Source: a virus
Taxonomy: Duplodnaviria; Heunggongvirae; Uroviricota; Caudoviricetes
Length of the DNA: 17,001 nucleotides
IMG/VR virus record: IMGVR_UViG_3300028991_000008
Span: 1 to 17,001 of that record
Strand: one strand, 5' to 3'
A program made the position numbers and the translations under genes. Numbering within the stretch: the stretch's first letter is position 1; the number at the start of each line of letters is the position of its first letter. Below are positions 946 through 3,852 of the stretch, one piece after another. The notes beneath the pieces are model-generated. The model was given only the letters and a program-made list of their open reading frames with translations, did no database searches and was not told the origin of the DNA.

Positions 946-1237
946 TACAGGTATTTCACCGCGCACCGCAGCGCACTCAACCACGTCGAACCAAACCCTT
1001 TGGAATGAGCCTTTGAGTAGTCAGTTAGTGCTGGTGAGCCTTGACGGGCTGATCTCCTATGCAGCAAAGGTTCATCTCAAAGTAAGGCGAACGCTATGAC
1101 AAACCAAGATTCTATAGACCTATCTGATCTTCGTGGAATGGTCAGTTTTCCAGACAAAAGGTAATCACCATAGTCGTATGGCTATGAATCTTGTTGCTGC
1201 AGATAAGCATTTTGTGATTGAAGTGGTCAAATCTCTC

Positions 1238-1266
1238 AAATGCAGTAAAATGCAGTGCGCTATAAT
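1238..1266 (+). promoter_or_regulatory. Candidate sigma70 promoter for the 206-aa accessory gene: consensus -10 TATAAT (1261-1266) overlapped upstream by a tandem AAATGCAGT direct repeat
   Basis: Perfect TATAAT hexamer 29 nt upstream of ATG 1295, followed by GGAGGG/AGGAGA Shine-Dalgarno sequences. No good -35 hexamer. The tandem repeat AAATGCAGT (1238-1246 and 1248-1256) occupies the -35 region. Confidence 0.4.
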
Positions 1267-1294
1267 TCAATAACGGAGGGAGTAAGGAGAAGTC

Positions 1295-1915
1295 ATGAAA
1301 GATCAAGATGTTAGGTTCGCGGTGCATCATAAGCTTTTGAAAGAATCGCATTTAGATCCAGACTGCCTTGTGGTCGATGAATTTTCCATATCCCTTGGCG
1401 CCAGTAGAGCAGACATTGCTGTAATAAATGGTGTTATACACGGGTACGAGCTCAAAAGTGAATATGACTCTTTGGAGCGTTTGCCTCTTCAAATCAAGCA
1501 TTATTCTTCTGTAATGGACAAGGTTACTCTTGTCGTAGCTGAGAAACATCTTGAGGGAGCATTAAAGTTAATCCCAGGTTGGTGGGGCGTTAAAACGGTT
1601 TCTGTTGGGCCAAAAGGCGCCATTCTTATAAAGCACATGCGTGGAGAAAAGCTTAATCGAAACCATGACACATTGATGCTCGCTCAATTGCTTTGGAAAG
1701 ATGAATGTATCGACGTACTTGAACGATGGGGCTATTCCAAAGGAATCAAAAGCAAGCCCCGATTTGAGTTATGGAATATTATTGCGGAAAATATTCCAAT
1801 AGCGAATCTCAGGCTTGAAGTCAGAACAGCCTTAAAGAAACGCGTAGGCTGGAAAGTTAAGGCTTGGCAGGATGAGTCTGCGCCAACCAATAAAGCTGTC
1901 TCACGACTAACGTAA
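1295..1915 (+). CDS. Hypothetical accessory (moron) protein, 206 aa, with a PD-(D/E)xK-like nuclease motif; candidate defence component
   Basis: ORF with strong RBS (AGGAGA) and ATG start. Motif E29 … D40(IAVINGVIHGY)E52-L-K54 fits the restriction-endonuclease-fold catalytic signature. AT-rich composition unlike the flanking phage genes. No counterpart at this position in lambda. Confidence 0.8.
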   Translation: MKDQDVRFAVHHKLLKESHLDPDCLVVDEFSISLGASRADIAVINGVIHGYELKSEYDSLERLPLQIKHYSSVMDKVTLVVAEKHLEGALKLIPGWWGVKTVSVGPKGAILIKHMRGEKLNRNHDTLMLAQLLWKDECIDVLERWGYSKGIKSKPRFELWNIIAENIPIANLRLEVRTALKKRVGWKVKAWQDESAPTNKAVSRLT

Positions 1916-2924
1916 TATGGTGCGTATGTGCAACTTTACGCCATTCTTTAGAGCCGCCAGATTTGTTAGCGCCTAATGATCTTTGGTAAATGTAATCATC
2001 CCCCCAACTAAATTTGGAGCCAAAGACTTGATACTCTGGCGAACTAACAAGGGTAGTACATAAGTTTTTAGTTTGGCCCCATCCATTTCCTTTAACTGCG
2101 GTACCTTTTACAAAGATCCATGAGGTATCGTTCGAATATCTCACTGAGACATACTGAGACATGAAGCGTGGGTCTACGCTCGTAATGGTAGAGCTAGCGG
2201 TGGGATAATCACTAAAACTTGGCGTTCTTCCATTGCTAAAATTCTGTACTACGTACATCCAAAGATCGTATTCATGGCGCGGAATATGATGAACTTGATG
2301 TTGCGGTATCCCTGCCTGTGATGCCGGGTATGCGGTTGAAGATAAAATCAAGTTTCTCCACGGAGCCTGGCCTGATAATGTGTTGACCATGCTTAATGCT
2401 TGTTGTTTTAAACTATCAGTTGCGTTTTGAATATCTCCAAAATCAATGATTACATCAATTAAACTAGGATGAATATTTAAGTGGTTAACCAGACTTGTGA
2501 ATTGGTGCCATGTCTGGGGGGTGATAGATATAGCGAGCCCATTGATTAAGTTGTGTTGAACAGCATGTATATAGTTTGTTGAATATGCGGGAGAAACAAC
2601 AGGGATAATTTCCTTACCATTTACTCTAGCATCTTGGATACACATATCTAGAGGATGATGGCGGCTCGAACCATGTTTATCTAAATATTTAACATCCAGC
2701 AAAACAGGACGATTGGCTTTCCAGGATGCCGCAAGGTTAATACCGAAGTCAGATAAGTAAGAACTCAAACTCTTCTTGTAGCATTCGTTTTCATAATCCC
2801 AGTCTATGTCTGGAATGGTAATGATCGGAGTAAAACCAGAGAGCGTAGTTTGATCTAAAAGCATCAGAGATTCATATTCAGCAGGCTTCCATTTCAGCTG
2901 TGGATAATATTGATGTTGACTCAT
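1857..2924 (-). CDS. Hypothetical accessory (moron) protein, 355 aa, unknown function; candidate defence component, convergent with the 206-aa gene
   Basis: Long minus-strand ORF with a near-perfect Shine-Dalgarno (minus strand AAGGAGTTTTAATG). AT-rich, with an AT-rich upstream region (2925-3060). Its 3' end overlaps the 3' end of the 206-aa gene by 59 nt. I recognise no motif with confidence. Confidence 0.8.
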   Translation of the reverse strand: MSQHQYYPQLKWKPAEYESLMLLDQTTLSGFTPIITIPDIDWDYENECYKKSLSSYLSDFGINLAASWKANRPVLLDVKYLDKHGSSRHHPLDMCIQDARVNGKEIIPVVSPAYSTNYIHAVQHNLINGLAISITPQTWHQFTSLVNHLNIHPSLIDVIIDFGDIQNATDSLKQQALSMVNTLSGQAPWRNLILSSTAYPASQAGIPQHQVHHIPRHEYDLWMYVVQNFSNGRTPSFSDYPTASSTITSVDPRFMSQYVSVRYSNDTSWIFVKGTAVKGNGWGQTKNLCTTLVSSPEYQVFGSKFSWGDDYIYQRSLGANKSGGSKEWRKVAHTHHITLVVRQLYWLAQTHPAKP

Positions 2925-2947
2925 TAAAACTCCTTAAAATCTTTACT

Positions 2948-2985
2948 TATTCTAAGTATAGTGTTATGGCGTAATGCCAATTGTT
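2948..2985 (-). promoter_or_regulatory. Candidate promoter region for the 355-aa gene
   Basis: On the minus strand there is a TATACT -10-like hexamer (plus 2955-2960) and a TTGGCA -35-like hexamer (plus 2975-2980), but the spacing is only 14 nt. The whole region is AT-rich. Assignment is weak. Confidence 0.25.
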
Positions 2986-3147
2986 TTTATACACTTGAAA
3001 ACATTGGGAAAAGTTGAGCTATATCTAAATTTACAAAATAGGATGTTATAGAAATCGAGGTTTCAACTAGGCATGGAACTGCAAAATTTTTAATGCCTGC
3101 ACGCGAAAGTCGTTGGCGGGTCCTTTCCGGTGATCCAGACCGTTACG

Positions 3148-3159
3148 GGGCGGCGACCT
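3148..3159 (+). other. cosN: cosN 12-nt cohesive-end sequence GGGCGGCGACCT (identical to lambda)
   Basis: Exact match to the lambda cohesive end as I recall it, in a flanking context that is also lambda-like. Confidence 0.9.
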
Positions 3160-3197
3160 CGCGGGTTTTCACTATTTATGAAAATTTTTCGGGATCC

Positions 3198-3295
3198 ATG
3201 TCCGGTTTCTCTTCAAGTTAACTACATGAAAAATATAAAAACAGGCTTTCCGTGAACCGGACATGCGCAAAAAATGGGCATGTGAACCGGACATG
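3198..3295 (+). repeat. cosB: cosB-like array of three terminase small-subunit binding repeats (core AACCGGACATG, one inverted and two direct)
   Basis: CATGTCCGGTT at 3198-3208 (inverted) and GTGAACCGGACATG at 3252-3265 and 3282-3295 (direct, 30-bp spacing). An AT-rich tract between the first and second copies could be an IHF bend site. Confidence 0.7.
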
Positions 3296-3342: not shown

Positions 3343-3852
3343 GTGGCTACGCAGACTGAAGTTGCCAGGCATTTAAGTCTGACCGATCGCCAGCTTCGCA
3401 GATTGCAGAAATTGCCGGGGGCCCCGATATCGAATAAGCGAGGGCAACTGGATCTGGATGCCTGGCGCGATTTTTACATATCGTATCTGAGGAGAAGTAA
3501 AAACGATGTGCCTGATGGCGATAGCGAAGACGACTATGAGGAGAAATTGCTTATTGCCAGATGGGAACTGACAGCGGAACAGGCTGTTACACAGCAGTTA
3601 AAAAATGAGGTGTCAAAAGGAAAACTTATTGACACCGGGTTCTGTATTTTTGCCCTCAGTAAGCTGGCAATGGCGTTATCCAGTACGCTTGATTCCATCC
3701 CTTTATCCATGCAGCGACAGTTTCCTGATTTAACACCGCGCCATCTTGACCATCTGAAAACCCTTATTGCGAAGGGAGCAAATCAGTGTGCGCGGGCGGG
3801 GGATAAATTACCGGATTTACTCGATGAATATATCAGAGCAACAACTGAATAA
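3343..3852 (+). CDS. nu1: Terminase small subunit (Nu1-like) with a divergent N-terminal DNA-binding domain
   Basis: GTG start after GAGGTGAGGAG. The C-terminal half (…TGFCIFALSKLAMALSSTLDSIPLSMQRQFPDLTPRHLDHLK…LPDLLDEYI) resembles lambda gpNu1. The N-terminal HTH region (EVARHLSLTDRQLRRL) does not. Confidence 0.9.
   Translation: MATQTEVARHLSLTDRQLRRLQKLPGAPISNKRGQLDLDAWRDFYISYLRRSKNDVPDGDSEDDYEEKLLIARWELTAEQAVTQQLKNEVSKGKLIDTGFCIFALSKLAMALSSTLDSIPLSMQRQFPDLTPRHLDHLKTLIAKGANQCARAGDKLPDLLDEYIRATTE

What the first reader, a model, noticed from the sequence alone, without database searches (positions are those of the whole stretch)
1295..1915. 206-aa protein carries a PD-(D/E)xK-like catalytic signature (E29, D40, E52-x-K54)
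The segment VVDEF…RADIAVINGVIHGYELKSEYD has an acidic residue, then a strand-like hydrophobic stretch starting with Asp, then E-L-K twelve residues later. This is the arrangement of the restriction-endonuclease-fold active site. A small nuclease in a prophage moron could act as a defence effector, or as a homing or anti-host function. The codons are D40 = 1412-1414, E52 = 1448-1450 and K54 = 1454-1456.
Basis: inference. Interest (0 to 1): 0.6.

Follow-up and report, generated by a model that had tools for sequence, protein, structure and literature searches.

The report
Phage-defence nuclease paired with beta protein
The 206-residue protein very likely is a restriction-enzyme-fold (PD-(D/E)xK) nuclease, but it belongs to a family that is already named (sce7726 / satellite phage P4 cII) and sits tail-to-tail with a "beta" TIM-barrel protein, forming a stripped-down two-gene version of the known gop-beta-cII anti-phage system carried by a lambda-like prophage.

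Summary
The ORF at 1295-1915 (+) and all four quoted codons are correct. The pattern alone means little: 57% of shuffles of the same protein contain it. Conservation and fold make it real.

- **Motif:** E29, E52 and K54 are invariant and D40 is 99% conserved in 152 family representatives, including P4 cII. A RecB/NucS-type Q66xxxY70 motif follows.
- **Family:** The protein scores as NCBIfam sce7726 family and PADLOC "cll", the cII part of P4's gop-beta-cII defence system.
- **Partner:** The convergent neighbour at 1857-2924 (-) is a Beta_protein-family TIM barrel.
- **Missing parts:** gop is absent, and so are the HigB and Xre-peptidase genes of PD-Lambda-2.
- **Location:** The pair is a low-GC insert between the lysis gene Rz and cos of a lambdoid prophage. 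It occurs in 126 of 5,426 complete E. coli genomes.

Beta + cII is the conserved core. In 77 of 80 loci from many phyla the genes are convergent, and the 3' ends overlap in a fixed register in 71 of 74 non-redundant pairs.

The likeliest mechanism is a Mg-dependent DNA nuclease effector controlled by beta, which is an inference. I rate it a new variant of a known kind, of moderate interest.

The parts
1224..1251 (+). Sigma-70-like promoter candidate (TGGTCA-16-TAAAAT) upstream of the cII-like gene
   Evidence: Consensus scan. This is weak evidence: the region has fewer such sites than its shuffles.
1284..1289 (+). Shine-Dalgarno AAGGAG, 5 nt before ATG 1295
   Evidence: Read directly from the sequence.
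1295..1915 (+). cII-like / sce7726-family gene, 206 aa (stop codon included)
   Evidence: ORF. NCBIfam NF033832 scores 2.3e-54, 184 bits against a cut-off of 70. PADLOC 'cll' scores 5.2e-31. PHROG 984 scores 7e-52. RefSeq annotates it as 'sce7726 family protein'.
1295..1654 (+). N-terminal PD-(D/E)xK nuclease domain (residues 1-120)
1379..1381 (+). E29 codon (acidic residue on the first core strand)
   Evidence: 100% conserved in 152 sequences.
1412..1414 (+). D40 codon (catalytic Asp on the second core strand, in the R38-A-D40 context)
   Evidence: 99% conserved. R38 is 98% conserved.
1448..1456 (+). E52-L-K54 codons ((D/E)xK on the third core strand)
   Evidence: E52 and K54 are 100% conserved.
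1490..1504 (+). Q66-x-x-x-Y70, a RecB/NucS-type motif on the helix after the ExK strand
   Evidence: Q66 is 100% conserved. Y70 is 94% Y, otherwise mostly F. The helix spans residues 63-73.
1658..1855 (+). C-terminal helical domain (residues 122-187), probably DNA-binding
1856..1912 (+). Non-conserved tail (residues 188-206), predicted with very low confidence, encoded antisense to the C-terminus of beta
   Evidence: pLDDT is below 50 for residues 188-206. Homologs vary in length here. The overlap is mapped.
1857..1915 (.). 59-nt overlap of the 3' ends of the two convergent genes
   Evidence: No hairpin or terminator lies here.
1857..2924 (-). Beta-family gene, 355 aa, a TIM-barrel protein and the obligate partner
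3148..3161 (+). cosN-like sequence GGGCGGCGACCTCG, which marks the right end of the phage genome; the two-gene insert lies between Rz and cos
   Evidence: Exact match, with 0.01 expected by chance. That this is the lambda cohesive-end sequence is from my own knowledge.

Best explanation
The ORF encodes a member of the sce7726 / phage-P4-cII family. It has an N-terminal PD-(D/E)xK nuclease domain carrying the full RecB/NucS-type motif set (E29, D40, E52-x-K54, Q66-x-x-x-Y70) and a C-terminal helical domain that probably binds DNA. It is one half of an obligate two-gene module. The other half is the convergent 'beta' TIM-barrel protein at 1857-2924 (-). The pair is the gop-less core of the gop-beta-cII anti-phage system of satellite P4. 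Here it is carried as a low-GC insert between Rz and cos of a lambdoid prophage. The proposed mechanism has four steps. (1) The prophage expresses both genes from their own convergent promoters. (2) Beta acts as the sensing or controlling partner. (3) On infection by another phage, cII uses divalent-metal catalysis by D40, E52 and K54 to cut DNA. (4) This blocks the invader directly or kills the infected cell. Shown here: family membership, fold, invariance of the catalytic residues, obligate pairing with beta, absence of gop, and the prophage context. Inferred: nuclease activity, DNA as substrate, beta as controller, and the anti-phage role of the two-gene form.
Confidence: 0.65

Rival explanations
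1. Restriction-modification-like logic. Beta is a TIM-barrel enzyme that modifies DNA or a nucleotide, as the DNA transglycosylase DpdA does. The cII nuclease then discriminates modified from unmodified DNA. The convergent layout would be like that of some R-M gene pairs.
Confidence: 0.1
2. Addiction or stabilisation module. cII is a toxin and beta its antidote, or the reverse. Their only role is to keep the prophage or island in the genome, with no role against other phages.
For: P4 gop/beta was read as a toxin-antitoxin pair. The module occurs on mobile elements and islands. The interlocked 3' ends prevent the two genes from being separated.
Against: The three-gene relative and PD-Lambda-2 both give measurable phage protection. 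The insert sits where other lambdoid and P4-like elements carry defence cargo, next to cos. Toxin-antitoxin behaviour and abortive infection are not mutually exclusive.
Confidence: 0.1
3. cII is a non-catalytic DNA-binding regulator, as its historical P4 name and some database names ('regulatory protein') suggest. The nuclease-like fold would serve only for DNA recognition.
For: Sources name some homologs 'regulatory protein' or 'phage regulatory protein cII'. A helical C-terminal domain resembles a SAP DNA-binding domain.
Against: Inactivated PD-(D/E)xK domains normally lose the acidic or lysine residues. Here E29, D40, E52, K54 and Q66 are 99-100% conserved across thousands of clusters from many phyla.
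Confidence: 0.08
4. A DNA repair or recombination nuclease that serves the prophage itself, in the manner of MmcB-like or Cas4-like enzymes, rather than defence.
For: The best structural neighbour, 3dnx SPO1766, belongs from my own knowledge to the MmcB-like repair family. One database source names a homolog 'DNA repair protein MmcB-like'.
Against: The gene is not with the phage recombination or replication genes. It sits in a variable low-GC insert. It also occurs in non-phage chromosomal contexts and is always paired with beta.
Confidence: 0.05

Closest known systems
cII protein of satellite phage P4 (component 'cll' of the gop-beta-cII defence system; DefenseFinder Rst_gop_beta_cll, PADLOC PDLC02989)
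   Same: It is in the same family: PADLOC cll scores 5e-31, both score as sce7726, and tblastn gives 27% identity over the full length. It has the same E, D, ExK and QxxxF/Y residues. The beta partner is likewise convergent. The position next to cos of a mobile element is also shared.
   Different: P4 cII is 264 aa with a long C-terminal extension. P4 has a third gene, gop, upstream of beta. P4's beta and cII do not overlap: a 27-nt gap holds an annotated terminator. The window has no gop and has a 59-nt overlap.
PD-Lambda-2 (Vassallo et al. 2022): HigB-like A, Xre-HTH/M78-peptidase B, beta-like C
   Same: The window's beta scores better on PD-Lambda-2_C models (4.7e-32) than on the P4 'beta' model (4.3e-10). 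Many PD-Lambda-2-type loci in other phyla also carry a convergent, overlapping cII gene.
   Different: The window has no A or B. The E. coli PD-Lambda-2-type locus has no cII.
NucS/EndoMS C-terminal domain and other RecB-family nucleases (Cas4, AddB, lambda Exo)
   Different: There is no detectable sequence similarity. The protein lacks the Cas4 iron-sulfur cysteines and the NucS N-terminal domain. Its C-terminal helical domain is different.
SPO1766 (PDB 3dnx), which I recall as a member of the MmcB-like PD-(D/E)xK family
   Different: It is a single-domain protein of unknown function. There is no significant sequence match. No beta partner is known for it.

Membership tests
PD-(D/E)xK (restriction-endonuclease-like) superfamily | Alpha-beta-beta-beta-alpha-beta core fold | tested here: met
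PD-(D/E)xK (restriction-endonuclease-like) superfamily | Catalytic D on the second strand and (D/E)xK on the third strand, conserved in the family | tested here: met
   D40 lies on strand 37-45, and E52 and K54 lie on strand 47-54. They are 99-100% conserved in 152 sequences.
PD-(D/E)xK (restriction-endonuclease-like) superfamily | Divalent-metal-dependent phosphodiester cleavage | not testable with these tools
   This needs purified protein and nuclease assays.
RecB-like subgroup (RecB, AddB, Cas4, NucS, lambda Exo) | QxxxY motif on the helix after the ExK strand | tested here: met
   Q66 is 100% conserved and Y70 is 94% Y, otherwise mostly F, on helix 63-73. That the motif defines the subgroup is from my own knowledge.
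NCBIfam NF033832 sce7726 family (corresponding to Pfam PF26915 Phage_P4_cII) | Score above the curated cut-off over the full length | tested here: met
   184.1 bits against a cut-off of 70, with residues 1-183 matching profile positions 1-182 of 184. PF26915 is precomputed for the 99%-identical P0001 and for all listed homologs. The local Pfam copy gave no match for this protein or for any of 39 family members, so it apparently lacks that model.
gop-beta-cII defence system (Rousset 2022; PADLOC / DefenseFinder) | cII ('cll') gene present | tested here: met
   PDLC02989 scores 5.2e-31.
gop-beta-cII defence system (Rousset 2022; PADLOC / DefenseFinder) | Beta gene adjacent | tested here: met
   PF14350 scores 9.4e-56. 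PDLC02985 'beta' scores 4.3e-10, with stronger hits to PD-Lambda-2_C. The gene is convergent, as in P4.
gop-beta-cII defence system (Rousset 2022; PADLOC / DefenseFinder) | gop gene upstream of beta | tested here: not met
   There is no plausible ORF between beta (ends at 2924) and cos/nu1 on the minus strand. tblastn with P4 gop gives only noise, E at least 0.4. The window is therefore not a full member as the system is defined.
gop-beta-cII defence system (Rousset 2022; PADLOC / DefenseFinder) | Protection against phage infection | not testable with these tools
   This was shown only for the three-gene P4 locus.
PD-Lambda-2 (Vassallo 2022) | HigB-like A and Xre-HTH/M78-peptidase B upstream of the beta-like C | tested here: not met
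   C is present. A and B are absent from the window.

The most novel reading that the evidence does not exclude
Beta + cII may be a self-sufficient two-gene anti-phage module found across many phyla, with the PD-(D/E)xK protein as the effector nuclease. gop-beta-cII (P4) and the four-gene form of PD-Lambda-2 would then be elaborations of it. Its two genes are physically interlocked. In 62 of 73 non-redundant pairs, from Proteobacteria, Firmicutes, candidate phyla radiation (CPR) lineages, Bacteroidota, Acidobacteriota and others, the codon of invariant cII R183 and the codon of invariant beta H336 lie exactly 39 nt apart. The conserved cII N-W-R codons are the antisense of the conserved beta C-terminal A/S-N-L. 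Every overlap length leaves remainder 2 when divided by 3. Because no terminator separates the genes, each mRNA must carry antisense to the other. This could give reciprocal, RNA-duplex-based control of nuclease and partner, as in convergent type I toxin-antitoxin loci.
Probability: 0.3. Interest if true: 0.65.

Novelty: new variant of a known kind. Interest (0 to 1): 0.45.

Why it matters
The mechanism of gop-beta-cII is unknown. One 2024 preprint describes its genes as being of unknown function. I found no paper in the searchable library that describes cII/sce7726 as a nuclease.

- **A testable effector.** A confident PD-(D/E)xK assignment with named catalytic residues gives the system an effector that can be mutated and assayed.
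- **A minimal system.** The gop-less pair in this prophage is the smallest natural version, so it is the cleanest one in which to test that effector.
- **A link between two systems.** Beta + cII is the conserved core, and it also accompanies many PD-Lambda-2-type loci. That ties together two defence systems that are catalogued separately.
- **An unusual gene layout.** The invariant tail-to-tail overlap is rare for a conserved bacterial gene pair and is worth a regulatory study.

None of this is a new kind of biology. Nuclease effectors in prophage-borne defence modules are common.

Tried and rejected
- **Sequence searches.** Searches against PDB chains, with the single protein and with a 39-sequence profile, gave only noise.
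- **Local Pfam.** The copy gave no hit for the protein or for any of 39 family members, including at permissive E-values, so there is no sequence-level link to a PDDEXK Pfam family.
- **Structure searches.** Foldseek against the PDB found nothing significant, with only weak splicing-endonuclease, YaeQ and XPF hits. The afdb50 library was unavailable.
- **gop, HigB and Xre-peptidase.** I looked for them in the window by ORF listing and tblastn, and they are absent.
- **Terminator or RNA structure in the overlap.** None was found: z-scores were +0.5 and +0.9, and there was no terminator-like site.
- **Beta-anchored locus searches.** These failed because beta alignments are too divergent for the pattern search. 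I anchored on PD-Lambda-2B instead.
- **Literature.** Ghisotti et al. 1990 (PMC249035) is not held, so statements about P4 gop and beta come through Rousset 2022. A search on 'Beta_protein/PF14350' returned only irrelevant papers.
- **Homing endonuclease reading.** I rejected it because there is no intron or intein context and the gene is always paired with beta.
- **'cII regulator' reading.** I rejected it as the main explanation because the catalytic residues are invariant.

Full report
**1. The observation**

The window holds an ORF at 1295..1915 (+) of 206 aa. AAGGAG at 1284-1289 precedes it.
- E29 is GAA at 1379-1381.
- D40 is GAC at 1412-1414.
- E52 is GAG at 1448-1450.
- K54 is AAA at 1454-1456.

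The pattern alone carries no weight. 57% of 20,000 shuffles of this same protein contain an E...D...[DE]xK arrangement with those spacings. Whether the observation means anything depends on conservation and fold.

**2. Conservation**

A word-indexed search found 315 homologs. A full HMMER profile search found 5,549 clusters at 50% identity with E <= 0.001, of which 1,385 had E <= 1e-30.

In 39 homologs down to 40% identity, E29, D40, E52 and K54 are invariant. I then aligned 152 sequences: this protein, P4 cII and 150 cluster representatives.

| Residue | Conservation in 152 sequences |
|---|---|
| E29, E52, K54, D58, R62, L63, Q66, E137, R183 | 100% |
| D40, R7 | 99% |
| R38 | 98% |
| Y70 | 94% Y, otherwise mostly F |

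Q66-x-x-x-Y70 is the extra motif that, from my own knowledge, marks RecB-type PD-(D/E)xK nucleases such as RecB, AddB, Cas4 and NucS.

**3. Fold**

AlphaFold2 with the 39-sequence alignment gives pLDDT 89.2 and pTM 0.84. The elements, in order:
- helices 3-14 and 16-20;
- strands 25-32 (carrying E29), 37-45 (D40) and 47-54 (E52, K54);
- helix 63-73 (Q66, Y70);
- strand 76-82, helix 83-92 and a hairpin at 98-116;
- a four-helix C-terminal domain (126-182) and a tail predicted with very low confidence (188-206).

This is the alpha-beta-beta-beta-alpha-beta order of the restriction-endonuclease core.

Negative results:
- Foldseek against the PDB found nothing significant.
- Sequence searches against the PDB found nothing.
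- The local Pfam copy found nothing.

The superfamily assignment therefore rests on structure, topology and motif, not on sequence.

**4. What the protein is**

It is a named family:
- NCBIfam NF033832 'sce7726 family protein' scores 184 bits against a cut-off of 70.
- PADLOC model 'cll' scores 5e-31.
- PHROG 984 scores 7e-52.
- Its homologs carry the precomputed Pfam family PF26915 Phage_P4_cII.
- tblastn hits the cII gene of satellite phage P4 over the full length, at 27% identity and 1e-11.

RefSeq already annotates the same gene as 'sce7726 family protein' in E. coli. The 2.5-kb region is present at 80% coverage or more in 126 of 5,426 complete genomes.

**5. The partner**

Beta diverges faster than cII, at 21-30% identity where cII keeps 40-47%. 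It still keeps polar residues: Y6, E16, D161, D239 and H336 are invariant. D77, R216, Y240, Y263, D309 and W328 are at least 90% conserved. It may therefore be an enzyme.

**6. Relation to known systems**

P4 carries gop (133 aa) and beta (355 aa) on one strand and cII (264 aa) convergent to them. Rousset et al. 2022 showed that gop-beta-cII protects against lambda and P1. They read gop and beta as a toxin-antitoxin pair (PMC9122126). Silas et al. showed that a phage gene, orf184, triggers cell death through it.

Vassallo et al. 2022 described PD-Lambda-2 as three genes: a HigB-like A, an Xre-HTH/peptidase B and a beta-like C. C is required for defence (PMC9519451).

The window has neither gop nor A nor B. 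There is no ORF between beta and cos, and tblastn gives only noise. The window fails the membership test for both catalogued systems on a defining component. What it holds is their shared core.

**7. Beta + cII is the conserved unit**

Of 80 genome loci found with the cII profile, 77 have beta immediately convergent. The loci come from:
- Proteobacteria and Myxococcota;
- Firmicutes;
- Bacteroidota, Acidobacteriota, Elusimicrobiota and Armatimonadota;
- Gastranaerophilales;
- several candidate phyla radiation (CPR) lineages.

Two of the three exceptions are cut by contig ends. One, L016 from a Xenorhabdus prophage, has a kinase fragment and a PP2C phosphatase instead. The same two-gene layout without gop is seen in Burkholderia, in an Acinetobacter prophage, in loci of Enterobacteriaceae and in phage Rac-SA53.

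Eleven of the 80 loci also carry PD-Lambda-2 A and B upstream of beta. I also anchored independently on PD-Lambda-2B. Three of those four loci have beta plus a convergent cII.

HigB/peptidase pairs also exist alone on plasmids. The E. coli PD-Lambda-2-type locus has beta but no cII (the system's published coordinates are). Beta therefore behaves as a hub that pairs with different partner modules, and cII is one of them. In the window cII is the only partner.

**8. The interlocked 3' ends**

In 71 of 74 non-redundant pairs the two genes overlap at their 3' ends, by 11 to 158 nt with a median of 50. Every overlap length leaves remainder 2 when divided by 3.

The distance from the codon of invariant cII R183 to the codon of invariant beta H336 is exactly 39 nt in 62 of 73 pairs, across phyla. 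It is 78 nt, also in frame, in the window's clade.

In the majority form the conserved cII N-W-R codons are the antisense of beta's conserved C-terminal A/S-N-L. In the window the overlap is 1857-1915. The cII tail (residues 188-206), which is not conserved and is predicted with very low confidence, is encoded opposite beta's C-terminal helix.

There is no hairpin or terminator in this stretch. Each transcript should therefore run into the other gene. The pairs are related by descent, so the counts are not independent events. Still, the register has survived divergence to about 25% identity in beta. Whether this reflects antisense regulation or only compaction is untested.

**9. Context**

The window is the late region of a lambdoid prophage:
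- lysozyme at 82-444;
- Rz at 426-878;
- the insert;
- the cosN-like sequence GGGCGGCGACCTCG at 3148-3161;
- nu1 at 3343-3852;
- terminase A, portal and head genes.

GC falls to 37-44% across positions 1000-3200, against 50-55% in the flanks. P4's gop-beta-cII also lies next to cos.

**10. Mechanism**

The best-supported reading is that cII is a divalent-metal-dependent DNA nuclease with a helical DNA-binding domain, and that it is the effector of the module. Beta would be the sensing or restraining partner. Activation during superinfection would lead to cleavage of phage or host DNA.

- Shown: family, fold, invariant active site, obligate pairing, absence of other candidate effectors, and mobile low-GC context.
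- Inferred: catalysis, substrate, the direction of control, and defence by the two-gene form.

The rivals are an R-M-like scheme with beta as a modifying enzyme, a pure addiction module, a non-catalytic regulator, and a phage repair nuclease. Each is listed with its tests. I give the main reading 0.65.

**11. Novelty and verdict**

In the searchable literature I found no description of cII/sce7726 as a PD-(D/E)xK nuclease. One 2024 preprint calls the gop-beta-cII genes of unknown function. One database source does label a homolog 'MmcB-like'.

The instance in this window is a gop-less two-gene variant, so I rate it a new variant of a known kind with moderate interest (0.45). The most novel reading that the evidence leaves open is this: beta + cII is a self-sufficient, phylum-spanning defence core whose fixed-register antisense overlap has a regulatory role.

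Noticed in passing
window 1857-1915; loci L002-L089: The 3' ends of the convergent cII and beta genes overlap in 71 of 74 non-redundant pairs from many phyla. The overlap length always leaves remainder 2 when divided by 3. The cII R183 codon and the beta H336 codon lie exactly 39 nt apart in 62 of 73 pairs, and 78 nt apart in the window's clade. Conserved residues of both proteins are dual-coded: cII N-W-R lies antisense to beta A/S-N-L. No terminator lies between the genes.
   Followed up: partly
L045 5416-8122, L053, L061, L065, L068, L073, L077, L080; L092-L094: Many PD-Lambda-2-type loci (HigB-like A, Xre/M78-peptidase B, beta-like C) carry a fourth gene that the published three-gene description does not list. 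It is a convergent cII-family nuclease overlapping beta by about 155 nt. The E. coli PD-Lambda-2-type locus (L099) lacks it and instead has a convergent DUF6119 gene 264 nt away.
   Followed up: partly
window 3148-3161 (+): There is an exact lambda-type cosN sequence, GGGCGGCGACCTCG. The two-gene insert therefore occupies the last ~2.3 kb of the phage's linear genome, between Rz and cos. This is the same cos-adjacent position as the defence hotspot of P4-like satellites.
   Followed up: partly
window ~904-1100: A short stretch between Rz and the cII-like gene is 85-87% identical to part of the rha / anti-repressor genes of P22-like phages. No intact ORF is present here, so it looks like a recombination scar at the left edge of the insert.
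   Followed up: no
window ~1000-3200: This is a low-GC island, at 37-44% against 50-55% in the flanking lysis and terminase genes. That is consistent with horizontal acquisition of the pair.
   Followed up: partly
L016 5001-6810 (Xenorhabdus koppenhoeferi prophage): This is the only complete locus with a cII homolog but no beta. The gene again sits right after an Rz lysis gene. A protein-kinase fragment, a PP2C phosphatase and a KilA-N protein follow it. It is either a decayed module or an alternative partner.
   Followed up: partly
phage records (Staphylococcus, Bacillus and Lactobacillus phages): About 280 lytic and large phages of Gram-positive hosts encode distant relatives of the nuclease domain only (residues ~14-145, 26-30% identity). 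Most are annotated as hypothetical and one as 'nuclease'. I did not check whether they have a beta partner.
   Followed up: no
window 1857-2924 (-), beta protein: The protein historically called an 'antitoxin' is predicted to be a complete TIM barrel with invariant Y6, E16, D161, D239 and H336. This suggests an enzyme or a small-molecule-binding sensor rather than a simple neutralising protein.
   Followed up: partly
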